Source: Dipteris shenzhenensis
Lineage: Eukaryota
Strand: one strand, 5' to 3'
NCBI GenBank assembly: GCA_047967505.1
Contig: CM106538.1
Length of the DNA stretch: 64,000 nt
Each line of letters opens with the position of its first letter. Positions within the stretch are counted from its first letter, which is position 1. Of the stretch, positions 3,300 through 40,249 are shown in pieces. Below the pieces are notes generated by a model. That model worked only from the letters and a program-made list of their open reading frames with translations. It did not search any database and had not been told where the DNA came from. The translations under genes were made by a program, and so were the position numbers.

Positions 3300-3329
3300 T
3301 GGCAGCGTTGATTGACCACTAAATTTAGG

Positions 3330-16917: not shown

Positions 16918-17406
16918 TATTGAGCCTATGTTGTTTGAAGGAGCCGTCTGGCATTGGCACTGTAGGTTGTCGGTCTAGAGTTGTTGGCTCGAGTTCGGAG
17001 TTTCTGTTGCAAGGAGATAGAGCTCTTAGTGGTTGTGAAGGTTGTGAGGCTCATAGTTATGGCTCGTTGGAGGTGTTGGCAGCTGATTTGATAGGGCGCT
17101 ACTCGTTGTTGAGGTCACCATTGAATCCGAGTCGCTATAAGAGCTGTTGATATGGCTTGAGTCTGCTGGGTGCGGAGCGATGCTATGAAGGAGGAGCATG
17201 TGAAGGCACTGGGAGCCAGGCTATGAAGCTAGAGGAGAAGAAAAATAGAAGGAATTGCTAAGTGTATAAGGGCTGACTTGGGTTCTCCAGGGCATGGGTT
17301 GTACTCAGCTTCATTCCTCCTGAAAACATCCAAAATGTTATTGTTCGGCTTCCCCTCCCCAAACTTGTTCGCCTTCATTCAGTAAGCCCTGGTCTTCCCT
17401 CATTCC

Positions 17407-20070
17407 TGTTGGGATATCTCAAGGTGTATGCCTCAGGCACACCTTGGTTTCTATGTGTGAGTGCTAGAGGCACAGTTAGGTGCCCACAAGCACAGTTAGG
17501 TGGTGGAAGAGCCACATAGGATGATTGAGAGAATCTAGGAGCAGATTGAGGAGATGATTGTGGAGCTCTGAAGTCATCAGTGATGTCAGTGAGCATGTAT
17601 GAGGTGCCTACTTAAGGACCTCACTCTTCTTCATTCTACAAGCAAGTAATGCAAGTATTCTGAGTTTGTGTCCACTCTTTCCTTTCCTTTCAGTTTACCA
17701 ACATGGTATCAGAGCCCTTTGATCCCCCTTGAGCCCATTTCTGCCACATCATCTTCTTCTTCTTCATCTTCTTCTCCATTTTCCTCTTTCTTCCCAAAAT
17801 CTTTGAGAGCTTGGTTCTCCACCTACAAACGACCATTGCCCAAACCCTCTAAGCTAGAAACTCCTCTAGTATGGGCAAACTTCCACCTGCAAGCAATTGA
17901 AGAAAAAACGTCTGTGGTGGCTGCCATTCCCCAAAAAGCGCATTTTTTTACCATTTCTTCTATTGCTCAATACTCCCTACTTGCTCCGCCATTGCCTGAG
18001 CCCTCTTAGGAGTAGATGGGTGACCTCAAGACAAAGATTTTGAGCCATTTTTCAGCTCATTTGGTTTAGTAACGAGGGAGAAATCGTCAAAACTCAGGTT
18101 CAGCCTGTAGCAACTCCCCCGGCCAAAAGTGCGCACCATTTCGTCCAACCTCTGTGTTGGACCCTCTCTGGTATATGAGCTTTCTTTTGCTTTAGAAAGC
18201 CCTCTTTTCCTTGCTTTGAAGAGTGAGCTACAAGCCCTCCAAGTTCAGCCTTTTAGTTTTGACAGTTTTGGACAAGTTTTTGAAGATGATGCTACATAAA
18301 ATGCTACTCTAGCATTTCTGGTTTTTTGAAACTTTCAATAACTTCAGTACAAGTGTGGCTTCAGTTTTGTTTTGAATTGCTAGACCTGGTTTTGATTGGA
18401 AAGTATTCATTTTAGCCACTTCTATGAAGCATGTAAGAAGAAGCATCATTGATTGAATATTGGTCACTAGTCTTTGCTACATCAAGTGCTCATATTTTGG
18501 AAGTCTTTCAATTATTTTTTGCCTTGTAAGAGAGATAGACACTGCCCAATATCTGGGTTAGACCCTCTCATGGCTACCCTATTGAATCTAGAAAAGTTCA
18601 ATGGAAAGGGCTTCCACACATGGCAGATGAAGGTGAAATTTGCATTGATGAGGGAGAACTTATGGGGACTTGTCAAACCGACTCCTACCGCTTCTTCTAC
18701 GGCCTCCAATGCTGGAGAATCCTCCACTCCGACACGACCGGCAAGGGATCCAGCTAGAGAAGAAAAAGCATATGGTATCATTGCTCTTGCTTTAGGAGAT
18801 GATTATATTCACCATATCTCTGACTTGGAGTCTCCTTCAGAAGCTTGGCAGAAGCTTGACATGATTTTTGGTGCTAGCTCTCACATCTCTAAACTATCAC
18901 TTAAAATCTCTTTCTTTGAATTGAAGATGGCTAGTGGTACTACTTTAGCAGCTCATGTCAACTATATGCGGAGTCTTATGACTCAATTAGCTTCTATCAA
19001 CTCTCCTATTACTCCAGATGATGCTATGGCAGTGTTACTTAAGAGTATGCCTGAAGACTATGATCACATAGTTACCACTTTGAAAAATCTTCCTAACCCT
19101 AATCTTGAAGGTATTATCTCTGCTCTCCAAGAAGAAGAAAGGCATATGGAGCTCAGGAAAGGCAATGACACTGTTTATGCTGTAAAAGTCCAGAAGGGCA
19201 AGTATACCCCTTGCAATCACTGTGGAAAGACAAATCACCTTTCAAAGGACTGCTTCAAAATTAATCCATGCAAGCACTGTGGCAAGAACAACCATAATGA
19301 GAAGTTTTGCAGAGCCAAAGCAAAGACAGAAAATGCAAATCTACTTTCAGTTGATGAGCCTCCACAAGATGAGGCATCCTTTGAAGATTATGCATTTTAA
19401 AACATCTCTATGTATGCTCCAAATCTCTCTTTTTATGTCAAGGTACTCAGCCTGGATAGTCCTCCAAAATGAATGAAATAAACTATTGTGTTTTGTGTGT
19501 TTTGTAAACACCTCTGGTCACCTTATGATGTAGGCCATGTGTATGTTTTGCTCCATGGTACCTTCTGCAGACATTGTGTGCATGTACATGCAGGGGAGAT
19601 AACCATTGGAAGGTCTTTTTGTATCCCTTTTGTTTACCTTACACCCATGGGAACCCTTGCTAGCATGAGAACCTAGCCATAGATTTATCCTTGACCACCA
19701 TGAGATGGCATGAGAAACTATGAGACTAGATGTATCCTTGACATAGCCTGAGGCATTCCCTTGAGGGGGGGTTTGTTGGGATATCTCAAGGTGTATGCCT
19801 CAGGCACACCTGGGTTTCTATGTGTGAGTGCTAAAGGCACAATTAGGTGCCCACAAGCACAGTTAGGTGGTGGAAGAGCCACATAGGATGATTGAGAGAA
19901 TCTAGGAGTAGATTGAGGAGATGATTGTGGAGCTCTGAAGTCATCAGTGATGTCAGTGAGCATGTATGAGGTGCCTACTTAAGGACCTCACTCTTCTTCA
20001 TTCTACAAGCAAGTAATGCAAGTATTCTGAGTTTGTGTCCACTCTTTCCTTTCCTTTCAGTTTACCAACA
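17407..20070 (+). mobile_element. Intact Gag-only non-autonomous LTR retrotransposon (TR-GAG type), 2664 bp
   Basis: 297-bp LTRs 17407-17703 and 19774-20070 with ~4 mismatches by eye; TSD ATTCC at 17402-17406 and 20071-20075; PBS TGGTATCAGAGC at 17704; PPT GAGGGGGGG at 19763-19771; no pol. Confidence 0.95.
18570..19400 (+). CDS. Copia-type Gag, 276 aa, two CCHC knuckles
   Basis: MATLLNLEKFNGKGFHTWQMKVK..LW; LLKSMPEDYD; CNHCGKTNHLSKDC and CKHCGKNNHNEKFC; ends FEDYAF*. Confidence 0.9.
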   Translation: MATLLNLEKFNGKGFHTWQMKVKFALMRENLWGLVKPTPTASSTASNAGESSTPTRPARDPAREEKAYGIIALALGDDYIHHISDLESPSEAWQKLDMIFGASSHISKLSLKISFFELKMASGTTLAAHVNYMRSLMTQLASINSPITPDDAMAVLLKSMPEDYDHIVTTLKNLPNPNLEGIISALQEEERHMELRKGNDTVYAVKVQKGKYTPCNHCGKTNHLSKDCFKINPCKHCGKNNHNEKFCRAKAKTENANLLSVDEPPQDEASFEDYAF

Positions 20071-21291
20071 ATTCCTTGACCAAGCTTTGGTGAGCTTTGG
20101 ATTAAGGCTCCTGTTAGGAAATCGTGGCTTGTCTTGGATGTCACCGACCTTGAAGAATCGCGCTGTTTCACTTAAGTTTTTGAATCGAATTCCTGGTTTC
20201 TATTTGTCCTCAAAAAACCTTCTAGAAACATGTGTGATCATGAGCTCAGCCGGAGGATTGTCATAGCATTAGCTTTGTGGCTTGCTTGAAGCTTTGGAGC
20301 TACAGGTCTCCAAGATGGCAGAACATCGGCTGTTTGTGATGCCCGTCTCTCCTCTCGGAATAGGAGGAGACTAGATCTCTATCTCACAAGGGATCTCTGT
20401 GAAGAACTTCACAATTTCTTGTCTCAATGGAAACACCTCTCTCTCATGGACGGAATGGATGGAATGAACAAATGGAAAAGAGCCAACATTGGTATCAGAG
20501 GCAATGTAGAGAAGATGGAAAGCAAATCCAAACATGAGGTGAAGCTAATTGATTACAATAGCACCAACTTTCCTATTTGGCAGCTCACGCTTTGTTTGTA
20601 TCATGGAGAAGGCTTTTGGTCGATTGTCTTAGATGTTGAGAAGAAACCAACAGGGAGAAAGGCTCATGACTCTCCTAAATTAGTAGAGAGATTGGAGGAA
20701 AGGAATGACAAGGCTCTTGGAATTCTGGGGTGAGCACTTGGTGGGAGGTATAGCCATCATCTCAACTTCTCCAAGATGGCATGCGAGAACTAGACTGTAG
20801 TGGAGACCTTGTTTAGTAGGCCGAGGCTCCAAAATTCAAAGGTATTACTCAATCATCAATTCTTTTGTTTGAATATTACAGAGGATCAAACACTTGGAGA
20901 GCATCTAAATCAGATGCACTCAATCCTTTGACAACCATTGATCTCGGTGTATGTATGGAAGACGATGATTCTAAAGTTGTACTTATTTCTAGCCTTACAC
21001 CATCATATGATGATCTTGTTAAGATCCTAAGAGTTAAAAATGATGCAAGTCTCTTATAAATGATTTCCATGCTACTAGAAGAGAGGCACAAGGTACTGAC
21101 GGGTAAAAGTGTGGATATTGTTGGAAGCTTGGACACAGAAAATAAACCTGTTTCAAAATGCGGGATGATATCACTCAGAAGAACAAAGAAAAAGGTAAAG
21201 AAAGTGTGCATGCAATAGAGGATTTTGCGAGACTCTATGTTGCAAGTGCAAGCGATGAAGATGAATGGGCATTCTAAACTCGGTGTTCATG

Positions 21292-24200
21292 TGTTGACTC
21301 TGTGCCAACATGAACTTATGAAGAAAGAGAAGGTGTTACAACTTTGTGATACAACTTTGTGTTACAACTTTCTGTTACAACTTCTAGACACAACCTTGTG
21401 TTACGACTTTGTGTTACAACTTCTACATGAAGAGAGAGAATGTGTTACGACTTTGTGACACAACTTTGTGTTACAGCTTTGTGTAACAACTTTGTGTTAC
21501 AACTTTGTGTTACAACTTCTACATGTAGAGAGAGAATGTGTTACAACTTTGTGTTACAACTTTGTGATACAACTTTGTGTTACAACTTTGTGATACGACT
21601 TTGTGTTATATGCAGAGAGAGAAGCTCTCCAACTTGTATAAATACCCCATAATGGAATGAAGCCCACACTCTTTGGGGCATTGTGTTGAGTCTACTTTGG
21701 TATTCTAAGCATTTGTCTCAAGTGTCCATGCTTCCTTGCACTGCACGTCCAAAAGCATGTCCTAACCTTACAACTCCTCCTTCCCTCTCCTCCAACCTTG
21801 CAACTCATCCTCTCCCTCTCCTCCTCCCTCCTCCTCCTCCCTCCTCCTCCTCCTCCTCCTCCCTCCTCCTCCTCCTCCTCTCCTCCTCCTCCCTCCTCCT
21901 CCTTCCTCCTCTCTCTTCTTTCCCCCATGCTCTTACACCTTTTTCCTCTCCCACTCCTATGCTTTCCTAAACCCTTTGTTCCTCAACCCTTAAACTCCAT
22001 GATCTACGAGGGAGACGAGTTCTCCACCATGTACTCTACTCTGAACCTTGGATCCTCCTTCTAACCTTGGACTCCTTCTAAACCTTGGAACCTCCTTCTA
22101 AACCCTGGAACTCTTTCTGAACCCTGGAACCTCCTTCTAAACCTTAAACTCCTCCTAAACCCTACAACCCCCAATGAAGGCGAAATAAAGATGATTTACG
22201 TTCCTTTTACACATGCATGCACTTTGTTTTCTTACCACACTTAAGCCTACGTCTCTCACCGAAACACGACTCGAGGTCCTAAGCTACACATCTACTACAA
22301 CCGACAATCCCAATATATCTGTAGGTGACAAAAATCCTCGGAACCTTGCAAACATAGAATACCCAGCTCTTCCTACGAAAGTAATAGGAAAGAGCCAACA
22401 TTTGTGGTAAGCAAACAAAGTGCATGCATGTGTAAAAGGAACATAAATCATCTTTGTTGAAGTAACGAAGGCTTTCGCCTTCATTGGGGGTTATAGGGTT
22501 TAGGAGGAGTTTAAGGTTTAGAAGGAGGTTCCAGGGTTCAGAAAGAGTTCTAGGGTTTAGAAGGAGGTTCCAAGGTTTAGAAGGAGTCTAGGGTTGTTGA
22601 CTTTGTGCCAACATGAACTTATGAAGAAAGAGAAGGTGTTACAACTTTGTGACACAACTTTGTGTTACAACTTCTAGACACAACTTTGTGTTACGACTTT
22701 GTGTTACAACTTCTACATGAAGAGAGAGAATGTGTTACGACTTTGTGACACAACTTTGTATCACTCCTATGCTTTCCTAAACCCTTTGTCCCTCAACCCT
22801 TAAACTCCATGATCTACGAGGGAGACGAGTTCTCCACCATGTACTCTACTCTGAACCTTGGATCCTCCTTCTAACCCTGGACTCCTTCTAAAACTTGGAA
22901 CCTCCTTCTAAACCCTGGAACTCTTTCTGAACCCTAGAACCTCCTTCTAAACCTTAAACTCCTCCTAAACCCTACAACCCCCAATGAAGGCGAAAGCCTT
23001 CATTACTTCAACAAAAATGATTTATCTTCCTTTTACACATGCATGCACTTTGTTTGCTTACCACACTTAAGCCTACGTCTCTCACCGGAACACGACTCGA
23101 GGTCCTAAGCTACACATATACTACAACCGACAATCCCAATATATCTGTAGGTGACAAAATTCCTCGGAACCCTGCAAACATAGAATACCCAGCTCTTCCT
23201 ACGAAAGTAGTAGGAAAGAGCCAACATTTGTGGTAAGTAAACAAAGTGCATGCATGTGTAAAAGGAACGTAAATCATCTTTGTTGAAGTCATGAAGGCTT
23301 TCGCCTTCATTGGGGGTTGTAGGGTTTAGGAGGAGTTTAAGGTTTAGAAGGAGGTTCCAGGTTTCAGAAAGAGTTCTAGGGTTTAGAAGGAGGTTCCAAG
23401 GTTTAGAAGGAATTGTTGACTCTGTGCCAACATGAACTTATGAAGAAAGAGAAGGTGTTACAACTTTGTGATACAACTTTGTGTTACAACTTTGTGTTAC
23501 AACTTTGTGTTACGAGTTCTAGACACAACTTTGTGTTACGACTTTGTGTAACAACTTTGTGTTACAACTTCTACATGAAGAGAGAGAATGTGTTACGACT
23601 TTGTGACACAACTTTGTGTTACAACTTTGTGTAACAACTTTGTGTTACAACTTTGTGTTACAACTTCTACATGTAGAGAGAGAATGTGTTACAACTTTGT
23701 GCTATAACTTTGTGATACAACTTTGTGTTACAACTTTGTGATACGACTTTGTGTTACATGCAGAGAGGGAAGCTCTCCAACTTGTATAAATACCCCATAA
23801 TGGAATGAAGCCCACACTCTTTGGGGCATTGTGTTGAGTCTACTTTGGTATTCCAAGCATTTGTCTCAAGTATCCATGCTTCCTTACACTGCACGTCCAA
23901 AAGCATGTCCTAACCTTACAACTCCTCCTTCCCTCTCCTCCAACCTTGCAACCCATCCTCTCCCTCTCCTCCTCCCTCCTCCTCCTCCCTCCTCCTCCTC
24001 CTCCTCCCTCCTCCTCCTCCTCCTCTCTCCTCCTCCTTCCTCCTCTCTCTTCTTTCCCCCATGCTCTTACACCTTCTTCCTCTCCCACTCCTATGCTTTC
24101 CTAAACCCTTTGTTCTGCAACCCTTAAACTCCATGATCTACGAGGGAGACGAGTTCTCCATTATGTACTCTACTCTGAACGTTGGATCCTCCTTCTAACC

Positions 24201-27200
24201 CTGGACTCCTTCTAAACCTTGGAACCTCCTTCTAAACCTTGGAACTCTTTCTGAACCCTGGAACCTCCTTCTAAACCTTAAACTCCTCCTAAACCCTACA
24301 ACCCCCAATGAAGGCGAAAGCCTTCATTACTTCAATAAAGATGATTTACGTTCCTTTTACACATGCATGCACTTTGTTTGCTTACCACACTTAAGCCTAC
24401 GTCTCTCACTGGAACACAACTCGAGGTCCTAAGCTACACATCTACCACAACCGACAATCCCAATATATCTGTAGGTGACAAAAATCCTCGGAACCCTGCA
24501 AACATAGAATACCCAGCTCTTCCTACGAAAGTAATAGGAAAGAGCCAACATTTGTGGTAAGCAAACAAAGTGCATGCATGTTTAAAAGGAACATAAATCA
24601 TCTTTGGTTAAGTAACGAAGGCTTTCGCCTTCATTGAGGGTTGTAGGGTTTAGGAGGAGTTTAAGGTTTAGAAGGAGGTTCCAGGAATCAGAAAGAGTTC
24701 CAGGGTTTAGAAGGAGGTTCCAAGGTTTAGAAGGAGTCTAGGGTTGTTGACTCTGTGCCAACATGAACTTATGAAGAAAGAGAAGGTGTTACAACTTTGT
24801 GATACAACTTTGTGTTACAACTTTGTGTTACAACTTCTAGACACAACTTTGTGTTACGACTTTGTGTAACAACTTTGTGTTATAACTTCTACATGAAGAG
24901 AGAGAATGTGTTACGACTTTGTGACACAACTTTGTATCACTCCTATGCTTTCCTAAACCCTTTGTTCCTCAACCCTTAAACTCCATGATCTACGAGGGAG
25001 GCGAGTTCTCCACCATGTACTCTACTCTGAACCTTGGATCCTCCTTCTAACCCTGGACTCCTTCTAAACCTTGGAACCTCCTTCTAAACCTTGGAACTCT
25101 TTCTGAACCCTAGAACCTCCTTCTAAACCTTAAACTCCTCCTAAACCCTACAACCCCCAATGAAGGCGAAAGCCTTCATTACTTCAACAAAGATGATTTA
25201 CGTTCCTTTTACACATGCATGCACTTTGTTTGCTTACCACACTTAAGCCTACGTCTCTCACTGGAACACGACTCAAGGTCCTAAGCTACACATATACTAC
25301 AACCGACAATCCCAATATATCTGTAGGTGACAAAAATCCTCGGAACCCTGCAAACATAGAATACCCAGCTCTTCCTACGAAAGTAGTAGGAAAGAGCCAA
25401 CATTTGTGGTAAGCAAACAAAGTGCATGCATGTGTAAAAGGAACGTAAATCATCTTTGTTCAAGTAATGAAGGTTTCGCCTTCATTGGGGGTTGTAGGGT
25501 TTAGGAGGAGTTTAAGGTTTAGAAGGAGGTTCCAGGGTTCAGAAAGAGTTCCAGGGTTTAGAAGGAGGTTCCAAGGTTTAGAAGAAGTTGTTGACTCTGT
25601 GCCAACATGAACTTATGAAGAAAGAGAAGGTGTTACAACTTTGTGATACAACTTTGTGTTACAACTTCTAGACACAACTTTGTGTTACGACTTTGTGTAA
25701 CAACTTTGTGTTACAACTTCTACATGAAGAGAGAGAATGTGTTACGACTTTGTTACACAACTTTGTGTAGCAACTTTGTGTTACAACTTTGTGTTACAAC
25801 TTCTACATGTAGAGAGAGAATGTGTTACAACTTTGTGCTATAACTTTGTGCTACAACTTTGTGATACAACTTTGTGTTACAACTTTGTGATACGACTTTG
25901 TGTTACATGCAGAGAGAGAAGCTCTCCAACTTGTATAAATACCCCATAATGGAATGAAGCCCACACTCTTTGGGGCATTGTGTTGAGTCTACTTTGGTAT
26001 TCCAAGCATTTGTCTCAAGTGTCCATGCTTCCTTGCACTGCACGTCCAAAAGCATGTCCTAACCTTACAACTCCTCCTTCCCTCTCCTCCAACCTTGCAA
26101 CCCATCCTCTCCCTCTCCTCCTCCCTCCTCCTCCTCCCTCCTCCTCCTCCTCCTCTCTCCTCCTCCTCCCTCCTCCTCCTTCCTCCTCTCTCTTCTTTCC
26201 CCCATGCTCTTACACCTTCTTCCTCTCCCACTCCTATGCTTTCCTAAACCCTTTGTTCCTCAACCCTTAAACTCCATGATCTACGAGGGAGATGAGTTCT
26301 CCACCATGTACTCTACTCTGAACCTTGGATCCTCCTTCTAACCTTGGACTCCTTCTAAACCTTGAAACCTCCTTCTAAACCCTGGAACTCTTTCTGAACC
26401 CTGGAACCTCCTTCTAAAACTTAAACTCCTCCTAAACCCTACAACCCCCAATGAAGGCGAAAGCCTTCATTACTTTAACAAAGATGATTTACGTTCCTTT
26501 TACACATGCATGCACTTCGTTTGCTTACCACACTTAAGCCTACGTCTCTCACCGGAACACGACTCGAGGTCCTAAGCTACACATATACTACAACCGACAA
26601 TCCCAATATATCTGTAGGTGATAAAAATCCTCGGAACCCTGCAAACATAGAATACCCAGCTCTTCCTACGAAAGCAGTAGGAAAGAGCCAACATTTGTGG
26701 TAAGCAAACAAAGTGCATGCATGTGTAAAAGGAAAGTAATTCATCTTTGTTGAAATAATGAAGGCTTTCGCCTTCATTGGGGGTTGTAGGGTTTAGGAGG
26801 AGTTTAAGGTTTAGAAGGAGGTTCTAGGGTTCAAAAAGAGTTCCAGGGTTTAGAAGGAGATTCCAAGGATTAGAAGGAGTCCAGGGTTGTTGACTCTGTG
26901 CCAACATGAACTTATAAAGAAAGGGAAGGTGTTACAACTTTGTGATACAACTTTGTGTTACAACTTCTAGACACAACTTTGTGTTACGACTTTGTGTAAC
27001 AACTTTGTGTTACAACTTCTACATGAAGAGAGAGAATGTGTTACGACTTTGTGACACAACTTTGTGTTACAACTTTGTGTTACAACTTTGTGTAACAACT
27101 TTGTGTTGCAACTTTGTGTTACAACTTCTACATGTAGAGAGAGAATGTGTTACAACTTTGTGATACAACTTTGTGTTACAACTTTGTGATACGACTTTGT

Positions 27201-27329
27201 GTTACATGCAGAGAGAGAAGCTCTCCAACTTGTATAAATACCCCATAATGGAATGAAGCCCACACTCTTTGGGGCATTGTGTTGAGTCTACTTTGGTATT
27301 CCAAGCATTTGTCTCAAGTGTCCATGCTT
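21292..27329 (+). repeat. Composite tandem array: six LTR-like blocks separated by five ~190-bp inverted-repeat modules; contains 13-bp TGTTACAACTTTG subrepeats, (CCT)n tracts and ~21-bp CTCCTTCTAAACCYTGGAAC subrepeats
   Basis: Blocks start TGTTGACT(C/T)TGTGCCAACA at 21292, 22595, 23414, 24745, 25589 and 26888. IR arm pairs are 22063-22239/22403-22595, 22873-23065/23229-23411, 24197-24389/24553-24745, 25049-25241/25405-25586 and 26340-26532/26696-26888, each around a ~163-bp spacer. Confidence 0.92.
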
Positions 27330-28037
27330 AGTATAACTGAGAGTTAGTTACCCTAACTAGGTTAGTTGAACTAACTGTGGGCAGTTTAACCCTAACTAAT
27401 TAGGCATCTAACTTAACTTCATCTAACTAGATCAACTTGGTTTCAACCCCTCGGTTGGACTTAAAGTCCATTCACACCACCATTAGGACCCCCGCAACGC
27501 AAAATTTACCCCTACTTTAACCCCTCTAAACTCATCCGTTTGGGACCCAAATTGAACCCCGTTTGAACCCAGATTTCACACACGGAAACACCACGTTACG
27601 AGGTATTTTTCCAGCCCATTGCACACCATTTCGGCATCCCTAGCACACGTTCATTCGTGCCCCCGTGTGGGCCTCATTTTGCATTAATTCACTCGTATTT
27701 TCACGCCATGACTTCCGATTAACGATCCGTCTGCACCGGCACATTTCCCTACACACGTAGGACAATCTTAGGCACATTATTAACACGACGGTCCCTACAC
27801 AAACTAACACCACTCTAACTCTCCGAACAACACCACCTCCACACCCGCACTTGGGGTAGCGACACCCTTGGCAAATCACGCACAATTTGCATGCAGTTAC
27901 GTTCCGGCCAACGACTTCGACTCCAACGATCGCCCCATCCACAACTAACTCCACTGCAACAACCGCCCCCGCCTATCCTCTACCCCGAATCCCCCCCTGA
28001 GATTCAACAACTCCCTTTAACTCCTCCACGCCCCAAC

Positions 28038-29180
28038 ATGGCTGGACGTCGTCATGACCATGATGGGGATATCGAGCTCGATGCAGAGGCTGACAACTCT
28101 TTCAATCGATGAAATCACAACAATCAAGGCCGATGCCCCTTGGGAAAACTGGAACTTCCCAAATATAATGGTAGGGGAGACCCAGCTCGCTTCCTCCAGC
28201 ATTTTGATGCCGCATGTCGAGCAGGTGGTGATCAATCCCATGAAACCAAGGTGGCTTGGTTTCCAATGGCCTTAACTGATGAAGCGTCAGAATGGTACCT
28301 TGACCTTCTCGTGGAAGAATGCGCCACATGGGACCTACTTCAAACTGAATTCAAATGTCGCTTTCAAACGGAGAGACTACAAGATGATCCCGCTCTCCAA
28401 CTCAACAAGATCGAACAAGGCTGGAGAGAAGATGTACGCACATACCTGGGAAAGATGAAGAGATTGATCGCCAAATGTGACCCACGCCCAGATGCAAAGT
28501 ACCTCACGGCATGGTTCATAGCAGGTCTAAGAAAGAAAATCCGCAAGGATATGAAAAAGATAAGTAGCTATGAAACATTCAGTGTTGCTCATGCGGCAGC
28601 CATTGACATCGAAGATGGCATGACAGATTCAGACGATTCAGACACTAGTAGTGATGATGCCAGATCAAATACACGAGATAAGTGCTTGAAAAAAGGTAAA
28701 TCAAAGGACACTGCCAAAACATCCAATGAAGATCGCCTAGAGGCCATGACTTTGAAGCTGAAAGAAGATATGATGCAGGCCATGGATCAAAAACTCCACT
28801 TGTCTCAGCCGCCAACTCAAACATATCCACGGCGAGAAAATGTCTGGTGCTCACACTACTTGGCAAATCATACAGCAAATGAATGCCCAGTCCTAAGAGC
28901 AAGGATCAGTGCACAAGCAAATCCACCGCCACGGTTGTGGTGCCATATCTGTGTCATCGGCGGCCATGATGAGAACAGTTGCATCTTCAACATGCGCAAC
29001 AATCCGCCTCGACCTCCACAATACCAAGCGGCACCCATGCCAGTATACAGGCAACCGGCACTTGCACAAGCGCCCCCAGCTCCAAGGCTAAATCATGTTC
29101 CCGTTCGGACACAAGTCCCACAACTACTCAGGAATCCGAATCCACGACCGTGTCCAAGAGCACCTAATCCAGCTCCTTAG
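28038..29180 (+). pseudogene. Ty3/gypsy-type Gag (retrotrans_gag-like) with one in-frame TGA at 28110; degenerate continuation to ~29640
   Basis: KLELPKYNGRGDPARFLQHF..FPMALTDEASEWY..W..LQTEFK.RF..EDVRTY..WFIAGL; Cys/His knuckles; downstream INVITRQQ motif. Confidence 0.8.
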
Positions 29181-29643
29181 CCAGTTCCCATACATCAATT
29201 ACAAGCCGAGGAAGTAGACTCACTATTTGAGTATGAAGCAGAGTACCCAGTGTACTATGTAGAAGGTGCAGAGGGTCTCATACCAGTTTATGCAAATCAA
29301 GTACAACCCAACACATATCGAGCACCAATCAAGTGTTACAGTGATCGTAGAGTGCCCTCATCGTGGTAGCCCCGCTACTTTCCAACACTCTGCAGAGATT
29401 GTGGCATAGGACATGCCTGTATGGATTGTCCCATGAAAAATAAGGTCCTAGAATAAACAGAGGTTAAGCCTGACATCCCCATCGGCATCATTGGGGTGGA
29501 CCATCAAAGTCTAGGTCCGGCAATTCTAAGGTCACAACCTATCAATGTAATTACACGCCAACAGAAAGAGATCACGAAGGACCCTATCATTCCAATCCAA
29601 CTAAAGTGACTTCTGAAAAAGAAAGCACAAGTGCCTCCACCTC

Positions 29644-32600
29644 CGCAGCAGTAATCGAGGGAATTCCCGAGGAAGTCACAGTCATTTTGCAAATGAACAT
29701 GGAAATATGTTTCTTGCAAGTGAAGAATTGCATCAGACTAATACAATGCACCTAGACACTGATTTCAATCCCAAAGAGGATTACAGCTATCAAGTCGACC
29801 AAGTGGAACAGGATCCTTGGTACATCGACAGCAGTGCATCATCTCATATGACAAATCATCAAGAATGGTTCACAGAAATGAAGCCATTAGAAGGTCAAAA
29901 TAATGTCATCTACACAGCAAACAATACACCGAATCCGATTCAAGGGACAGGTGTTATCCCTATGAAAATTTTCACTGGTACAAAAGGATTAGTCAAAGAT
30001 GTGCTCTATGTTCTGAAGCTCAGCAAGAACCTTTTGTCAGTAGGTCAAATGATGGAACACAACTACAAAGTCATCTTCGACGGTGATGAATGCACTATCA
30101 GAGACAAATCCAAAAGAGGTCAGCTAGTAGCAAAAGGTGTCAAGGAAGGACGCTTATACAGGATGCTAGCTACTGTACTAGATAAGCATGCCATGTCAGC
30201 TCAAATGCAATAGATGCCACTATCTGCAAAATGGCACAAGAGATATGGTCATGTCAACTTCAAGTACTTGTTAGATCTCAAAATCAGAATATGGCAATTG
30301 GGATTCCGAAGCTACAGTTTCTTGGAAAGGTTTGTGAAGCATGCTGCTTCGGCAAACAAAAGCGAACCAACTTTGTCAGAAGTACCTCTCGTGCACGAGG
30401 TATTCTTGATTTGATTCATACAGATGTATGGGGTTATGCCCAGACCCGCAGCATCAATGGTTCACTTTACTACTTGACCTTCATCGACGACTATAGCAGA
30501 TATTGTTGGGTCTACTTTCTGAAAGAGAAATCTGAAGTGTTTTTCAGATTCCAAGAATTCAAAGCCATGGTAGAAAACCAAACAGGCAGAAAGATCAAGG
30601 TCATGAGATCAGACAGAGGAGGTGAATACATGTCTTCAGCATTCATGAACTTTTGCGAAAATCACGGCATACGAAGACAATTCACATGTGCAGATACTCC
30701 TCAGCAAAATGCAAGAGCTGAAAGGAAGAATGGGACTTTAGCAGACAGTGCTAGAGCAATGCTTAGTGAAAAGCATCTTCCGAATCAGTATTGGGTAGAA
30801 GCAATAGCTACAGCTAACTACTTGCTTAATCGGCTTCCTACCGAACCGATACAAGGTATGACTCCTTATGAAGCATTCACTGGACACAAGCCACGCATTG
30901 GGCACCTCCGCATATTTGGTTGCATAGCATATGCCCACATACATGATGATCATCGCAGGAAATTGGATGCGAAGTCACGCAAATGCATCATGGTTGGCTA
31001 CAGTGAAGAAAGCAAAGCATACAAATTGTATGATCCCATCAACCGCAAAGTCATTATCTCCAGAGATGTAATCTTTGATGAGGAATCAGAATGGAAAACC
31101 TCACCTACACAGGAGATAGAAGCATCGACTTCACAGTCATCTACAAAACAGGTTGATGAAGAAGAGCAAGAATTGCCAGCAACACCCCAAGCAAAGCCAC
31201 AGCAGCTCAGACGGTCTACTAGGGAAAGCAGACCACCAGCCAGATTGACATATGCTCAGAAAGGCAAAGCAATTCAGGTGGAAACCACCAACTATGCTCT
31301 TATGACTACCATCATGGCTACAGAAGAGCTAGTGTACTTCGAAGACGCAGTAGATAAGCCAGAATGGCAAATTGCTATAAATGAAGAAATTGCTGCTTTG
31401 TATAAGAATAACACTTGGGAATTATGCGACCTTCCACCAGGAAAGAAGGCCATAGCCAACAAATGGGTATACAAAGTGAAGTACAATCCAGATGGCAGTA
31501 TTCAGAGATATAAAGCCAGATTAGTTGCAAAAGGATTTGCACAACAATATGGTCAAGACTATGATGAGACTTATGCTTCAGTAGCAAAGATGGATTCCAT
31601 ACGGTTCTTGATATCACTAGCGACACTCAGTAAATGGAATGTGTATCAGCTCGATGTCAAGAATGTATTTCTCAATGGTTATCTAGACGAGGAAGTCTAC
31701 ATGCAACAACCAGCAGGTTATGTTGAACCAGGAAAGGAGAAAAAGGTTTGCCATCTCAAGAAAAGTCTCTACAGCTTAAAGCAAGCACCCAGAAGTTGGT
31801 ACAGCAGAATTGACAAGTATTTTGCTGATCTGGGATACATGAAGTCCAATGCAGATCATACTCTCTACTACAAAGTTCAAGGGGAAGACATTACTATTGC
31901 ACTTTTGTACGTAGATGATCTGATTGTGACAGGAAGCAAGGATAGCTTCATCAGAAAATTAAAACAAGACTTATCTGCAGAGTTCGACATGAAAGATCTT
32001 GGACTTATGCACTATTGTCTTGGAATTGAGTTCTGGAGAGATTCAGATAGCACATTCATGAGTCAGCTCAAGTATGTTGACAATCTCCTGAAGAAGTTTC
32101 ATATGGCAGATTGCAAGATTGCAGCCACTCCCATGGAACAGAGTTTGAAACTTACTAAAGATTCAGAAAAGCCTACAATCAATGACAGATACTACAGGCA
32201 GCTCATTGGATCTCTTATATATCTGACAATCACACGGCCAAATATTTGTTATGCAGTAAGCTCACTAGCACAGTTTATGGCAAATCCAAAACAGTCTCAC
32301 TGGAATGCAGCCAAAAGAGTCTTGAGATACATCAGAGGTACAAGACATTTTGGGATAGAATACAGAGGAAGTCATCCACGGTTGCATGGATACTGTGACA
32401 GTGACTATGCTGGAGATCATGAGACCAGGAGATCGACACAGGGATATGCATTTTTCCTTGGTCAAGGTGCTATATCATGGTTGTCAAACAAACAGCCAAC
32501 TGTTTCTTTGTCTTCGATTGAAGCAAAATATAGAGCACTCACTACAGGTGCATGTGAGGCTATATGGCTCAGAAGACTATTGTCAGAAACAGATTACTTC

Positions 32601-32876
32601 GATGAGTCAAAGCCAACAACAATATACTGTGATAATCAATCGGCTCAAGCATTGGCCAAAAATCCAGTATATCACTCCAGGACAAAGCACATTGATGTCA
32701 GAGAGCACTTCATCAGAGAAAGAGTGTTACTTGGTGACATCACATTCCAGCATTGTGATAGCAAAGAAAATGTTGCAGACATCTTTACCAAACCACTCGG
32801 TAAAGAGCTATTCGAGAAACACCGACTAGCTCTTGGTTTGACACAGAGGAAGGACATTCCCATTAAAGGGGTGTGA
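29644..32876 (+). pseudogene. Ty1/copia pol (PR-INT-RT-RNase H), nearly intact, with one stop and a frameshift near 30211-30280
   Basis: WYIDSSASSHMT; LIHTDVWG; MRSDRGGEY; YKARLVAKGFAQQYGQDY; LLYVDDL; GYCDSDYAGD..TRRST; HSRTKHID; ADIFTKPL. Confidence 0.93.
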
Positions 32877-33337
32877 TGGAATGTAATGCTCAGTCCTTCT
32901 TCGATTCCCTCATCATCTTGAGGGAAGGCCTACTTCATGATGTTGATCTTGAGGGAAGGTGTTGAGAGTTCACGCTCAACATCATGTGATCATGTGTGCA
33001 TAGCACCATCACGTGATCATATGTGCATAGCACTAACCTTATAGAGTGCTATAAAGGAAAGGGTTAGATTCCCTAACCCTAACCCTAAAAGGGTTTGTAT
33101 ATATTCTATTTTTTCAACTAAATCTAGTGTACAGTTAGTCATTTGTGGTGTGCTCTCTAGCTATGCCCTCTCTCCTCATCTCCACTCTTCTCCTCTCCCC
33201 TCTTCAAATTTTGTCAGGCATCTATGTGAACGTGGAATATTAGATTCTAGTCTAGGGCTTGTAATACCGATGTAGTGGCTAGGGCTAGTTTGAGAGTTTC
33301 GAAGGACACTTCTCGGTCCACTCAAAGACTACTAACA
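32874..33337 (+). mobile_element. 3' LTR of the copia pol element; no matching 5' LTR in the window
   Basis: Follows the PPT AAAGGGGTG, reads TG...CTAACA, contains TATAAA, and is followed immediately by gypsy RT sequence on the minus strand. Confidence 0.7.
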
Positions 33338-36300
33338 GTTTGTATAGTGGCCACGCTATGTCTGTGTAGAACAGAATGAACCTTTGGTAGTAGCCCGTGT
33401 GGCTAGTAAATCACTGCACTCCCTTGGCATTTGTGGGGGTGGTAATTTTAGAATGAGCTTGATTTTGTTGTAGTCCATGGAGATACCATTCTGGGACACT
33501 ATGTGGCCGAGAATCACGTCATGTTTGACCCAAAATTGGCACTTAAGGGGATCCAGGGATATACAGTATAACTAGCACTTTTCCAAGACTAGTCTCAGGT
33601 ATCTCAGGTGATCATCCCACTCAAGCTCACGCATATGTCATCCAAGAAGTCTTCCACAAAGTCCCTTAGGTACTCCTTGAAGATGGTGATCATCAACCGT
33701 TGGAAGGTGGTAGGAGCATTGGTAAGCCCAAATATCATTATCCTAGCTGCATACAAACCCCACTCGGTTGCGAAGGCCATTTTGTGTTGATCCTGAGGAG
33801 TGATAGGCACTTGAGTGTACCCAGAGAATCCGTCTAGGAAGCTATCGGCTTCCTTTCCAACAGATCTATGCATACTCGAATCTTTCCATTGTTCTTCAGG
33901 ACTATCACAATGGGTGACATAGTCTGTATGCTCAATTTCATAGATGGATCCCGCATCTATGAGTTTTTGGATCTCCTCTCTCACTATGAGCGCATATTTG
34001 GGATTCATAGGGTAGGGACGTTGATGCACTGACCTGGCATCATCAAGCATGGGTATACCTTTCATATCTATGTATTTCTAGGTCATACAATCCTTGTACT
34101 CTTGAAGGAGGGCTATTAAAGCATTCTCCTCATTGGAGGTGAGATCGTCTCGGTGATGAATACCGGTTGGGGGTTTGGACCTTTCGGCGCTTGGTTTACC
34201 TCCTTGACCCAGGTTGGGCTGTCATATCCTTGGAAGTACCCGTCTTCCTGAGATCTCTTGTCCTGTTGGTATAAGATCTTGCAATCCTCAATCGTGTAGG
34301 CCTTGTAGTGGGCTGGTACCTGTCGTAGATCCTCCTTCTCTTCACCTTCCTCTTCCACTCCTTCTTGGGGGGTAGTCCTCTTGGTCCTAGTAGGGCTTTT
34401 GGATGTTGGGAGTTTCAGACCTGAAGGGGGCTCTTTCATGGCACTTATAGAGCCAATTGGGAGGTAACCTTGCTTACCTTTGCTCCCCAATTGGAGAAGA
34501 ACTCATGGTGGGTGGTAGTGGCACCAACATATGCTATCCAGTGGAGGTTTGATTTGACCCTTACTGTCCCCTTGCTCACCTCGAGGGGTTTGAGCATGTT
34601 GATCAACCTGAGGGGAGCCAACGAGGTCAACCGCTCGAGTTCGAGCATTGTCACTTGGAGCCCTATTCTCTTTGGGACATCAATGTTTGCCAGAATGTGC
34701 ATCCACTAGTTCTAAGAGAATTCCGCCTTGGGAAGAGGGGCATACCAAAATTCATTGGCCTCCTTCTCATCCTCTTCCTTCCCACAAGGTTGGAATAGTT
34801 TTAGGGATGCTGTCCAGATGGTTGTGTCAGATTCTGCGGCAAATAGTTGTCCTAACAATTGGTGGGTCTTGTAGGTGCACAAGTCCACTTGCATGATTTG
34901 CTCCTCATGCCACAAATAGATGATGTTGGTGCGCCAATTGTGTATGAGTCCGGACATCTGCAAGAAGGGCCTGCCTAGGATGGCTTCATATCCCAGTTGC
35001 TGGGTAAAGTCCATGATTACGAACCTAGCGGTGTACATGAAGCCAAATACTTTAATATTAATATCGATGAGGACTCCCAAGGGTGGCAAAGTTCTGCCAT
35101 CGACTAACTTCACTTCTAGATGGGTTTGCTCGAGCACGGGTTTTCCCCACTTCACCCGATATTCCTTGGTACAAACACTCACTCCCGCTCCCCCATCTAG
35201 GATGGCATCCATCTTTTGGTTCTGGTAGGTTATGGAGATAGTCGCGTTAGTATCATCACCCTTCAAAGTATTGGCCCAGCTTATTGATGGGAATCTTGGG
35301 TAAGTTATGTCCCTTCTCTAGTGATTGATCGGCCTTGGGGCTAGTAGGTCTTGGGGGTAGGAATCGTCCATTCATCCAGCTCGATAGGTCTCGCCAGAGG
35401 GTAGGATTCCCTCATAACAAGGAAGCGATCGGCATTTTTACCTTAATGGAGAGGAAGGCTGCCAACCCCTATCGCAAGGTTCCCGAGAGAACTCTTTACC
35501 CACTGATAGCAGATCCTAAAAACCGTAAAGGTCTCCTTCTTCTTATAAGTTCTGCAATACTGGGTACTCTTGGAACATTCAATGCATCAAGTCTGAAGCC
35601 TCTGATTTACCGAAGCTAGAACGTTCCTCTTCTTCTACCCTTTCTAGCACCCTAAGCGCCTTTGCCCCTCTGTGCGTGGACAGGTGGATTGGGTGCATGG
35701 TATCCTAACCCTCTGCTAGCCTTGAGTCTATGATCGAACTTTTTCTGGCACTCCCGTACTGTCCTGAGCCTCTATTACATATTGTTTTTCCAATGCTGGG
35801 TTTGGATAGGTTCCCTTATATGGAGGTGGGGATGTGAGGCCTCGGGCCTGCACTGGCTTGTTTACATATGGGTCACTTTGGGAGGGAGAGGAGGTGGCAA
35901 GGGTGGCTGTCTCCTCATCAGAGCTGTCTTGAATGAACACCTCGTCGGCTCCTTCACCTACCTGTATGGCCTTCTTGGACCGGGTTTGCAGTGGTTGAGA
36001 CACCTCAGGATTTTGTGGTAGGGGCGCTTTATCCTTCCTTGCCTATTTCTTCATTTCCCTGCCTATGGCTTTGGCCTACATCCTTGTGATGACCTTCAAG
36101 GGTACCACTGCTACTTGACCTTGTTCAATACTTATAGCAAAAGTTAAGGCCGATGCTCTTAGGCGGGGTGATCGGAGTTGTTGGTCATCCCAAGGGACAA
36201 TCCTTGAATAAATGTTCTATTCTGCAACCAGCACACAAGGATGTAGGGCCTTTTGTGGGTGGGACTGCTAGGGTAAGACCTTTGTAAGGGAAGTCCTTTA

Positions 36301-38009: not shown

Positions 38010-38125
38010 GGTCGTGGGGATAGGGCTAAGGCGACGGTCGTAGGGATGAAGCTAAGGCAACGGTCGTAGGGATAGGGCTAAGGCGACAGTTGTAGGGATG
38101 AAGCTAAGGCAACGGTCATAGGGAT
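38010..38125. repeat. 26-bp tandem repeat x ~4.5 in the gypsy leader; degenerate copies continue to ~38690
   Basis: Unit GGTCGTAGGGATRRRGCTAAGGCRAC. Confidence 0.8.
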
Positions 38126-39578: not shown

Positions 39579-39930
39579 TATACAAGTCACCTTTTGAAGG
39601 GAGGGCCAATCCTTTTCCTTTTTGCACTCTCCCTTCCTTTACATTCACAAGGCTCTTGGGCCCATAGGGTGCCAAGGCGTATTCTCTATCCTTTCCTTCT
39701 CTCTTCTATTGTTACGTCTATCCGTGTGTCGAAAATAGCACCTGTGTTAACCATATACAAGTCACCTTTTGAAGGGAGGGCCAATCCTTTTCCTTTTTGC
39801 ACTCTCCCTTTCTTTACATTCACAAGGCTCTTGGACCCGTAGGGTGCCAAGGCGTCTTGTCTATCCTTTTCTTCTCTCTTCTATTGTTATGTCTCTCCGT
39901 GTGTCAAAAATAGCACTTGTGTTAACCATA
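39579..39930. repeat. 175-bp tandem duplication inside the gypsy LTR
   Basis: TATACAAGTCACCTTTTGAAGGGAGGGCC...TGTGTTAACCA occurs at 39579 and 39754. Confidence 0.9.
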
Positions 39931-40249
39931 TAAGAGCGCTTGGGACAAACCGGGCATTAGGAGGGGTTCCTAATCGGGTCCCAAATAGCACTTGTGTTAA
40001 CCTTGCCCATTCGAGTCCTAAGCCATCTGAGGCTCAAAACCCATCTGTGAGGCTTAAAACTTGGAGTGGCGAGGCCGAGATCTTAAGCCATTTGTGGCTC
40101 AAACCCTGTAAAGCATGGAACTATACTCCTTCCATGGCTGCGACCGTCGAAGTAAATCATGAAGCCTAATCACCTCTAATCACTCATTACCATGCATTTT
40201 GCGACTGTACTCTGTGGATGTTAACAGGGCTACAAAGGAAATCTTGTTT

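What the first reader, a model, noticed from the sequence alone, without database searches (positions are those of the whole stretch)
21292..27329. Tandem array of an LTR-like mini-element whose PBS position holds a 190-nt fold-back of its own LTR
Seen: each full unit reads purine tract GAAGAAAGAGAAGG, TGTTACAAC (21334), 13-bp subrepeats, TATAAATA, a CT-rich tract, then ..GAAAGAGCCAACA (22400) and TTTG-TGGTA. The end closely matches the real LTR/PBS junction at 20475-20494 (GAAAAGAGCCAACA-T-TGGTATC). After TGGTA the sequence is not tRNA-complementary. It is the reverse complement of ~190 nt lying 163 nt upstream, and it then runs into the next purine tract and unit. This occurs five times. Known: tandem TRIM arrays share LTRs, and S. 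pombe Tf1 primes reverse transcription with its own RNA annealed to the PBS. Inference: this may be a non-coding, tRNA-independent (self-priming or fold-back) TRIM-like element amplified as a concatemer. Alternatively it is a single template-switch accident at the TGGTA/TACCA microhomology that was later tandemly amplified. In either case a transcript from the TATA would form ~190-bp dsRNA stems, a likely siRNA source.
Basis: partly seen in the sequence, partly recalled or inferred. Interest (0 to 1): 0.82.

Follow-up and report, generated by a model that had tools for sequence, protein, structure and literature searches.

The report
Tandem LTR array with inverted spacer
A plant retrotransposon's long terminal repeat is repeated six times head to tail, each copy followed by a 194-base backwards copy of part of itself; it looks like a one-off copying accident that was later amplified, not a new kind of self-priming mobile element.

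Summary
Window 21292-27329 contains six head-to-tail LTR copies: three full, two sharing one deletion, and one cut off. Five 186-194-nt spacers separate them. Each spacer is TT plus a reverse-complement copy of LTR positions 752-944 (193-nt arms, 163-nt loop).

The anatomy needs correcting. The LTR most likely starts 42 nt earlier, at TGTTGAC. The supposed PPT is one of four copies of a purine motif inside U3. The spacer therefore has neither a PBS nor a clear PPT.

In contigs from other sequencing runs, near-identical LTR copies end at the same CCAACA-TT and continue TGGCGCCGCTGCCGGGG. That is an ordinary tRNA-Asp/Asn-type PBS. The family is tRNA-primed, and the fold-back replaces the PBS from its third base.

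A shared deletion and shared variants show that a two-unit block was duplicated at the DNA level. The arms show 0 fixed and 0 compensatory differences.

Best reading: one aberrant product, probably a reverse-transcription fold-back, inserted into a copia element and expanded by unequal crossing-over. It may produce hairpin RNA, but this was not tested. It is a new variant of known tandem LTR structures and of modest interest. No whole genome was available, so the locus has not been shown to be unique.

The parts
21292..22400 (+). LTR copy 1, full (1109 bp). Starts TGTTGACTCTG and ends GAGCCAACA.
22401..22594 (+). Spacer 1 (194 nt): TT plus the reverse complement of LTR positions 752-944 (arm 2). 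The partner arm 1 lies at 22063-22239.
22595..23226 (+). LTR copy 2, deletion variant (632 bp). LTR positions 179-640 are missing, so it has no TATA box and no CT tract.
23227..23413 (+). Spacer 2 (187 nt). Its arm 2 is shortened at the 3' end, as in spacer 4.
23414..24550 (+). LTR copy 3, full (1137 bp), with TATA at 23785.
24551..24744 (+). Spacer 3 (194 nt). It shares two derived sites with spacer 1.
24745..25402 (+). LTR copy 4, deletion variant (658 bp), with the same deletion junction as copy 2.
25403..25588 (+). Spacer 4 (186 nt).
25589..26693 (+). LTR copy 5, full (1105 bp). Contains the 13-bp/96-bp U3 subrepeats, TATA at 25934, the CT tract, 20-bp subrepeats, and arm 1 at 26340-26532.
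26694..26887 (+). Spacer 5 (194 nt): TT plus arm 2. In other runs the contigs leave the sequence at 26693-26697 and continue as a tRNA-type PBS.
26888..27329 (+). LTR copy 6, full type, cut off at LTR position 442. Unrelated DNA follows, probably the 5' UTR of copia D.
20490..21291 (+). Left flank: PBS (TGGTATCAGAGG, tRNA-Met type) and decayed gag of copia element B, broken at the start of its Pol_BBD motif. This is the apparent insertion site of the array.

Best explanation
The region is a chromosomal tandem array of complete LTRs (about 1.1 kb, TGTTGAC...GAGCCAACA). The LTRs belong to a family that normally uses a tRNA-Asp/Asn-type primer binding site, so it is probably a non-chromovirus Ty3/gypsy family. 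A 186-194-nt spacer separates the LTRs. The spacer is the 2-nt LTR/PBS spacer (TT) followed by an inverted copy of LTR positions 752-944. It has no PBS and no clear PPT.

Shown:
- The family's normal PBS is replaced from its third base.
- All five junctions are identical.
- The arms were identical to each other when amplification began and have since decayed without compensation.
- At least one amplification step was a DNA-level duplication of a full-plus-deleted two-unit block.

Inferred origin (about 0.4-0.5 on its own):
- Both spacer junctions coincide with the natural ends of plus-strand strong-stop DNA. These are LTR base 1 on one side and LTR end + TT + the first 2 nt of the PBS on the other.
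- I therefore propose that a strong-stop-length DNA folded back on itself at a 2-nt TG/CA homology during reverse transcription.
- It copied 193 nt of its own LTR, then switched to the start of an LTR template.
- That produced one LTR-spacer-LTR product, which integrated into copia element B.
- Unequal crossing-over between LTRs then expanded it, one unit lost positions 179-640, and the block was duplicated.

Today it is decaying debris. The four TATA-bearing copies (three complete, and three followed by a spacer) could drive transcripts with a roughly 190-bp dsRNA stem homologous to the family's U5. That is a plausible but untested siRNA source.
For: Array structure and junctions.

Normal PBS in other copies:
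- Contigs from 4 of 4 runs were laid: 377, 92, 74 and 98 contigs.
- Loose ends behind 26697 read GCGCCGCTGCCGGGGAG.. in 1 contig of X1 and 2 contigs of X2.
- X2 record 16 matches 26519-26697 with 2 differences and 1 gap before leaving the sequence.
- X5 records 27 and 30 leave at 26693; record 30 runs on for about 1.97 kb.
- TGGCGCCGCTGCC matches 12 of 13 nt of the ATHILA tRNA-Asn/Asp PBS TGGCGCCGTTGCC, which also follows a short AT-rich spacer (section 6 read).
- Neumann 2019 passages state that copia lineages primed by whole tRNAs use tRNA-Met, and that non-chromovirus gypsy elements use Asp and others.
- A gypsy element in the window carries the same PBS type at 39180-39197.

LTR start at the unit start:
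- All six units begin TGTTGACTCTG.
- The terminal inverted repeat with the 3' end matches 9 of 10, against 4 of 10 for TGTTACAAC.
- The purine motif recurs: 18 hits in the window, all inside the array, and 4 per full unit in units 1 and 5.
- An X1 contig diverges exactly before 25589.

DNA-level amplification:
- Units 2 and 4 share one deletion junction.
- Informative sites: (u2,u4) 6, (u1,u3) 5, others 4.
- Spacers 1 and 3 share two derived sites.

Single origin: 0 fixed differences between the five arm-1 and five arm-2 copies, and 0 compensatory changes among 74 departures.

Precedents:
- Fold-back self-priming of strong-stop DNA by RT (PMC6088434, passages).
- Tandem LTR-RT structures sharing LTRs, possibly arising from single insertions (PMC11899658, abstract and sections 8 and 13).
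Against: - No whole genome was held and both metagenome scans found nothing. I could not test whether the LTR-spacer-LTR form occurs elsewhere in this genome.
- laid contigs only. Contigs show presence, not absence. The normal PBS rests on 3 contigs, from runs that may be other accessions or species.
- Contigs of X1 and X5 do cover parts of 26698-26828. These may be ordinary LTR pieces that fit the arm, but junction-bridging contigs cannot be excluded.
- The LTR start at 21292 rather than 21334 is an inference. A perfect 14-nt purine run followed by TG at 21320-21335 is what a real PPT/LTR border looks like.
- The reverse-transcription origin is untested. The microhomologies are only 2 nt and 1 nt, the right end of the array is truncated so no target-site duplication can be checked, and a replication-based template switch gives similar junctions.
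- The tRNA identity could not be checked against this organism's tRNA genes (none in the window).
- The array itself is not confirmed by long reads.
Confidence: 0.6

Rival explanations
1. Chromosomal origin. A resident copy of the element suffered a replication-fork or break-repair template switch (MMBIR/FoSTeS-like duplication-inversion-duplication). This put an inverted 193-nt LTR piece after the LTR and restarted copying at the LTR. Unequal crossing-over did the rest, with no reverse transcription involved.
For: The junction microhomologies of 2 nt and 1 nt are typical of such switches. The neighbourhood is heavily rearranged: copia C is cut at about 17144, B lacks its pol and 3' LTR, and D lacks its 5' LTR and PBS. 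DNA-level duplication of a two-unit block is shown.
Against: Both breakpoints would have to fall within 2 nt of the two natural LTR termini: LTR end + TT + TG, and LTR base 1. This is unlikely for random chromosomal breaks in a unit of about 1.3 kb. The argument weakens if the LTR really starts at 21334.
Confidence: 0.2
2. Extrachromosomal concatemer. A small circle or linear aberrant cDNA (LTR plus spacer, about 1.3 kb) was multiplied by rolling-circle replication or recombination. It was then captured at a double-strand break between copia B and copia D.
For: The array starts and ends at different phases of the unit (LTR base 1 and LTR position 442). It is flanked by two unrelated truncated elements. 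PMC11899658 section 13 discusses 1-LTR circles as a possible source of tandem LTR-RT insertions.
Against: The left edge is exactly LTR base 1, as expected for an integrase-type junction and not an arbitrary phase. The shared deletion and the (u1,u3)/(u2,u4) variant pattern need chromosomal block duplication anyway. There are no eccDNA data.
Confidence: 0.1
3. A non-coding mini-element that replicates without tRNA, primed from its own fold-back (Tf1-like), and amplified as a concatemer by retrotransposition.
For: By the formal criterion of Neumann 2019 (at least 10 nt complementary to the 5' LTR, starting 0-5 nt after it), this spacer would be scored as 'self'. Full units keep a conserved TATA region (25904-26039 matched with 0-1 differences in the listed X1, X2, X3 and X5 contigs). 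Arm 2 ends purine-rich next to the following LTR.
Against: - Near-identical LTRs elsewhere carry a normal tRNA-type PBS.
- From one search's depth tables I calculate that X2 and X3 coverage stops at 26697. This is an inference, and it does not prove absence.
- The complementary stretch begins about 400 nt and ends about 600 nt after the TATA box, not at the RNA 5' end.
- There are no compensatory changes to keep the pairing (0 of 74).
- Two of five units lack the promoter yet were copied, so copying was at the DNA level.
- There is no canonical PPT if the LTR starts at TGTTGAC.
Confidence: 0.05
4. Assembly artefact. The array or its unit number was created by mis-assembly of LTR reads.
For: The array was not verified with long reads. 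Repeats of 1.3 kb are hard to assemble.
Against: The units are distinguishable: 4 to 14 private substitutions per unit, different subrepeat numbers, and two units with a specific deletion. Collapsed or duplicated reads would not produce that.
Confidence: 0.05

Closest known systems
Tandem LTR-retrotransposon structures (LTR-internal-LTR-internal-LTR; Morales-Diaz et al. 2025, PMC11899658)
   Same: Alternating LTRs and inter-LTR segments that share their internal LTRs. The left edge is an LTR terminus, and unit number is shaped by recombination.
   Different: Here the inter-LTR segment is only 186-194 nt. It is an inverted piece of the LTR itself, with no PBS, PPT or coding sequence. Flanking target-site duplications cannot be checked because the right end is truncated.
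Tandem arrays of TRIMs (Cassandra, PMC7215508 abstract; Wukong, PMC4528315 listing only)
   Same: Non-coding LTR plus a short spacer repeated in tandem. Unequal crossing-over is the proposed cause.
   Different: TRIM LTRs are small and their internal domain keeps a tRNA PBS and a PPT. This LTR is about 1.1 kb and the spacer has neither.
Self-primed LTR elements (Tf1/Sushi, plant Tcn1 and TAR lineages; Neumann 2019, PMC6317226 passages)
   Same: The sequence directly after the 5' LTR is complementary to the LTR's own transcript.
   Different: In those families a short stretch at the very 5' end of the RNA is the primer, and the feature is family-wide. Here the complement is 193 nt long, lies about 400-600 nt downstream of the TATA box, and other family members have a tRNA PBS.
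Fold-back self-priming of strong-stop DNA by reverse transcriptase (HIV-1 in vitro; PMC6088434 passages)
   Same: A strong-stop-length DNA folds back and is extended on itself, giving an inverted copy. This is the proposed origin of the spacer.
   Different: [quoted passage not shown] Here it would be a plus-strand-type product that was completed, integrated and fixed in a plant genome, and that is inferred only.
Mu killer and other transposon-derived long inverted repeats that yield hairpin RNA (PMC3440606 abstract; LIRBase PMC8728187 listing; Sirevirus LTR palindromes PMC4728375 listing)
   Same: An inverted duplication of part of a transposon that can be transcribed into a long hairpin homologous to active family members.
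   Different: Mu killer is a DNA transposon derivative read through from a flanking gene, with proven silencing. Here the promoter would be the LTR's own, and no small-RNA or expression data were examined.
Satellite DNA derived from LTR-retrotransposon tandem repeats (Vondrak et al. 2020, PMC7004042, listing only)
   Same: Retrotransposon sequence amplified in tandem at the DNA level.
   Different: Those satellites arise from short subrepeats inside elements and form long arrays. This is a six-copy array of whole LTRs.

Membership tests
TRIM (terminal-repeat retrotransposon in miniature) | Small terminal repeats (roughly 100-250 bp) and a small total size | tested here: not met
   The LTRs are 1105-1137 bp. 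The size criterion is recalled, and is consistent with the abstracts seen.
TRIM (terminal-repeat retrotransposon in miniature) | Internal domain with a tRNA-complementary PBS next to the 5' LTR | tested here: not met
   After CCAACA-TT only TG of the family's PBS remains, followed by inverted LTR sequence.
TRIM (terminal-repeat retrotransposon in miniature) | PPT directly upstream of the 3' LTR | tested here: inconclusive
   If the LTR starts at TGTTGAC, the preceding bases are ..AGAAGGAGTCCAGGGT, purine-rich but interrupted. If it starts at TGTTACAAC, a 14-nt purine run precedes it, but that motif recurs inside U3.
TRIM (terminal-repeat retrotransposon in miniature) | Dispersed copies with 5-bp target-site duplications | not testable with these tools
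   No genome was held, the metagenome scans were empty, and the right end of the array is truncated.
Self-priming LTR retrotransposons (Tf1-like) | The PBS is complementary to the first nucleotides of the element's own transcript | tested here: not met
   The complement is LTR positions 752-944 and the TATA box is at position 346. The 3' end of the would-be primer lies about 570 nt past the expected start site. The start site itself was not mapped.
Self-priming LTR retrotransposons (Tf1-like) | The feature is shared by the family, with no tRNA PBS | tested here: not met
   Three contigs from two runs show a tRNA-Asp/Asn-type PBS after near-identical LTR ends (motif).
Self-priming LTR retrotransposons (Tf1-like) | Formal criterion of Neumann 2019: at least 10 nt complementary to the 5' LTR, starting 0-5 nt after it | tested here: met
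   A 193-nt complement starts 2 nt after the LTR end (criterion read). This is met formally only.
Tandem LTR-retrotransposon structure | Alternating LTRs and internal segments sharing the internal LTRs | tested here: met
   Six LTRs and five spacers lie in register.
Tandem LTR-retrotransposon structure | The whole structure is flanked by one target-site duplication (single insertion) | not testable with these tools
   The left edge is LTR base 1 next to ..GTTCATG. The right edge is cut at LTR position 442.
ATHILA / non-chromovirus Ty3-gypsy (parent family of the LTR) | tRNA-Asn/Asp PBS TGGCGCCGTTGCC after a short AT-rich spacer | tested here: met
   Other copies read CCAACA-TT-TGGCGCCGCTGCC, a 12 of 13 match. 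The organism's own tRNA was not available.
ATHILA / non-chromovirus Ty3-gypsy (parent family of the LTR) | Gypsy-type polyprotein of that lineage in the internal region | not testable with these tools
   No internal region of this family lies in the window, and the sequence of the X5 contig beyond the LTR was not returned.
Hairpin-RNA (long inverted repeat) siRNA locus | A transcribable inverted repeat that folds into a long stem | tested here: met
   -355.3 kcal/mol, z = -33.7. A TATA box lies upstream in the full units.
Hairpin-RNA (long inverted repeat) siRNA locus | 21-24-nt small RNAs map to the arms | not tested

The most novel reading that the evidence does not exclude
The LTR-spacer-LTR unit is a living non-autonomous element. 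It is mobilised in trans by the parent family, and its minus-strand synthesis is primed from its own 193-bp U5 hairpin instead of a tRNA. The array would then be a concatemeric retrotransposition product rather than chromosomal amplification.
Probability: 0.04. Interest if true: 0.8.

Novelty: new variant of a known kind. Interest (0 to 1): 0.33.

Why it matters
If the proposed origin is right, this locus is a genomic fossil of a reverse-transcription side reaction: strong-stop DNA folding back and priming on itself. That reaction is otherwise known mainly from test-tube work on retroviruses. The locus would also be a concrete example of how a tandem LTR structure can start from one aberrant insertion.

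It is also a candidate natural hairpin locus aimed at its own retrotransposon family, analogous to Mu killer. This can be tested with small-RNA data.

The finding does not reveal a new way of priming reverse transcription. The family uses an ordinary tRNA-type primer site.

Tried and rejected
- Whole-genome search for dispersed copies was not possible; no genome is held.
- Two metagenome scans found 0 hits each. One used a 26-letter LTR-end pattern and one a 31-letter TATA-region pattern.
- Earlier findings of this scan returned nothing by place, sequence, relatives or words.
- One search listed 2 runs recorded as RNA (X19, X20) and 2 more guessed to be RNA (X12, X18), each holding 5-7% of the words. 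None was laid, so they say nothing about expression.
- I considered element B's LTR as the array's 5' LTR and rejected it. Only the last 19 nt match (17 of 19, E = 0.46), and B has a tRNA-Met PBS.
- I considered the gypsy LTR at 39201-40400 (minus strand) as a relative. It shares only the low-complexity CT tract (77.6% over 98 nt).
- I tested whether B's coding sequence continues into the unit's first 42 nt (Pol_BBD motif). Pfam found nothing on the read-through, and local alignments to three copia elements scored 18-20 only. The 23-nt likeness to the VDSGAS.HM codons at about 8042 is unresolved.
- Rfam found 0 matches at gathering score in 17000-28500, so there is no Cassandra-like 5S or other known RNA. 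ARAGORN found no tRNA gene in the window.
- A Protein Atlas look-up of the Npa1-like ORF, tried in order to place the organism, gave nothing useful.
- I noted a weak gapped resemblance between the end of arm 2 (GGAGTCCAGGGT) and the pre-LTR letters of the X1 contig (GGATCCGGGAGTA). It was compared by eye only and is not used as evidence.
- Literature searches (listings only) showed no description of an LTR array whose spacer is an inverted LTR piece. These were few searches of an open-access library.
- The supplements of Neumann 2019 (Additional files 1 and 5, PBS per lineage) were not seen.

Full report
CONTEXT

The window is plant-like, transposon-rich DNA. It holds an AP2-domain ORF (2721-3332, minus strand), an Npa1-domain gene (about 41.1-49.3 kb) and many copia and gypsy fragments. 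No whole genome is held for it.

Yes.
- BLAST of the unit 25589-26888 against the window finds full units at 21292-22595, 23414-24745 and 25589-26888. It also finds short units at 22595-23411 and 24745-25588, and a partial unit at 26888-27329.
- The inverted-repeat search gives arms of 183-193 nt at 94-97% complementarity, with 163 nt between the arms of one unit.
- All five LTR-end junctions read ..GAGCCAACA|TT|TGTGGTAAG...
- As RNA, 26330-26898 folds into one long hairpin at -355.3 kcal/mol (z = -33.7; 0 of 100 shuffles fold as well).

The resemblance to the junction at 20475-20494 is 17 of 19 nt (E = 0.46), and nothing else aligns. That neighbour, element B, is a copia with a tRNA-Met PBS, so it belongs to a different family.

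WHERE THE LTR STARTS

Three observations argue for a start 42 nt earlier.
- All six units, including the first one next to foreign DNA, begin TGTTGACTCTG.
- This start forms a 9-of-10 terminal inverted repeat with the LTR end.
- The purine tract is the first of four copies per full unit of a motif (ATG.AGA.AGAGAA) that punctuates the U3 subrepeats. There are 18 hits in the window, all inside the array.

In one search, an X1 contig diverges exactly before 25589. From the depth tables I calculate that an X3 contig covers only about 25589-25623 before diverging. That pattern is expected at a conserved LTR terminus.

I therefore read the unit as a complete LTR (1105-1137 bp) plus a 186-194-nt spacer. 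The spacer has neither a PBS nor a canonical PPT.

THE FAMILY IS tRNA-PRIMED

Contigs from four public runs were laid on 25560-26960. The numbers laid were 377, 92, 74 and 98, with 94, 22, 10 and 9 of them at least 99% alike.
- The LTR is a real, multi-copy family.
- Behind 26697, one X1 contig and two X2 contigs continue GCGCCGCTGCCGGGGAGACTAG... Those copies therefore read CCAACA-TT-TGGCGCCGCTGCCGGGG.
- X2 record 16 matches 26519-26697 with 2 differences and 1 gap before leaving the sequence.
- X5 records 27 and 30 leave at 26693; record 30 runs on for about 1.97 kb.
- The ATHILAfinder preprint (bioRxiv 10.64898/2026.03.20.713144, section 6) gives TGGCGCCGTTGCC as the tRNA-Asn/Asp PBS of ATHILA, after a short AT-rich spacer. 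That is a 12 of 13 match.
- Neumann et al. 2019 (PMC6317226, passages) report that copia lineages primed by whole tRNAs use tRNA-Met, and that non-chromovirus gypsy elements use Asp and others. Its supplementary files were not seen.
- A gypsy element on the minus strand of this window has the same PBS type (39180-39197), but its LTR is not homologous beyond the CT tract.

In the array, the PBS is replaced from its third base by inverted LTR sequence, with a 2-nt TG/CA overlap.

From one search's depth tables I calculate that X2 and X3 coverage stops at 26697. X1 and X5 have coverage on the arm that may come from ordinary LTRs. Contigs cannot prove absence.

HOW THE ARRAY GREW

- Units are 95.4-98.8% identical.
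- Among the five complete units, informative sites group (u2,u4) 6 times, (u1,u3) 5 times and other pairs 4 times.
- Units 2 and 4 share the deletion and a shortened arm 2. Spacers 1 and 3 share two derived sites.
- A full-plus-short block was therefore duplicated at the DNA level. Promoter-less units were copied too.
- The five arm-1 and five arm-2 copies show 0 fixed differences and 0 compensatory changes among 74 departures.
- The fold-back was thus made once, from the same LTR sequence, shortly before amplification. Its pairing has not been maintained by selection.

ORIGIN (INFERRED)

With the LTR starting at TGTTGAC, the two spacer junctions sit at LTR base 1 and at LTR end + TT + 2 nt of the PBS. 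These are the natural ends of plus-strand strong-stop DNA. Random chromosomal breaks would rarely hit both.

I therefore favour a reverse-transcription accident:
- A strong-stop-length DNA folded back at TG/CA and copied LTR positions 944 down to 752.
- It then switched to the beginning of an LTR template, giving one LTR-spacer-LTR product.
- That product integrated into copia B at ..GTTCATG|TGTTGAC..
- Unequal crossing-over followed, as proposed for other tandem LTR structures (PMC11899658, sections 8 and 13).

Fold-back self-priming of strong-stop DNA is a known reverse-transcriptase side reaction (PMC6088434, passages).

The rivals are a chromosomal replication or repair template switch, a captured extrachromosomal concatemer, a truly mobile self-priming element, and mis-assembly. 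They are weighed in their own sections.

WHAT IT MAY DO NOW

Four LTR copies keep the TATA box, and three of these are followed by a spacer. A transcript running from such a promoter through U5 into the spacer would contain the roughly 190-bp stem, which is homologous to the family's own LTR. That resembles transposon-derived hairpin loci such as Mu killer (PMC3440606, abstract only). No expression or small-RNA data were examined.

VERDICT

The self-priming TRIM interpretation is not supported.

The locus is a new variant of known tandem LTR structures and is of moderate-to-low interest. The main open point is whether the junctions are unique in the source genome.

Noticed in passing
17407-20070 (+): A compact gag-only copia-type element nested in element B's LTR. 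It has 297-bp LTRs at 98.65% identity, a TGGTATCAGAGC PBS, one 309-aa ORF with the copia gag domain, and a 5-bp duplication ATTCC on both sides.
   Followed up: partly
17145-17406 + 20076-20488, 20490-21291 (+): Copia element B. Its 5' LTR is split by the nested element. It has a tRNA-Met-type PBS and a decayed gag, and it ends at the array. Its pol and 3' LTR are absent from the window. B's LTR itself cuts copia C inside its RT domain at about 17144.
   Followed up: partly
33600-40400 (-): A gypsy-type element with a tRNA-Asp/Asn-like PBS (39180-39197, 3 mismatches to the motif seen in other runs). Its LTR has 179-bp subrepeats (39579-39932), a TATA box and a CT tract. Its long 5' leader has short tandem repeats at about 38000-38700. 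It is truncated in RT near 33600.
   Followed up: partly
27330-33600 (+): Copia element D has gag, integrase and a full RVT_2 domain. Its 3' LTR starts near 32960 (TGTTGAGAG) after a GAGGGAAGG purine tract. It has no 5' LTR or PBS, and its leader abuts the truncated last LTR of the array.
   Followed up: no
53187-62122: Nested pairs of long direct repeats. The outer pair is 53187-53944 / 61364-62122 (97.6%), around gypsy RT and integrase ORFs on the minus strand. The inner pair is 54019-55133 / 57246-58360 (99.55%), flanking a 635-aa ORF in which Pfam finds only copia gag-type domains (gag and DUF4219).
   Followed up: no
49484-49772 and 51271-51559: 289-bp direct repeats at 97.2% identity, about 1.5 kb apart, just downstream of the Npa1-like gene. 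This may be a small LTR element.
   Followed up: no
45565-49329 (+): An uninterrupted 1255-codon open frame downstream of the Npa1-domain exon (41571-42788). That is an unusually long exon for a plant gene, and it has no Pfam hit.
   Followed up: no
25589-26960 vs contigs of X1, X2, X3, X5: Where unit 5 differs from the family's contigs, the commonest class is window T against contig C (12, 8, 14 and 15 places in the four runs). This fits C-to-T decay of a methylated, silenced copy. Several of these are private changes of unit 5.
   Followed up: no
21292-21333 and each unit start: The first 23 nt of the LTR (GTTGACTCTGTGCCAACATGAAC) resemble, with gaps, the codons of the copia motif VDSGAS.HM in the element at about 8042 (minus strand). 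They sit right after B's own decayed copy of that motif. This may be chance or a trace of recombination; it is unresolved.
   Followed up: partly
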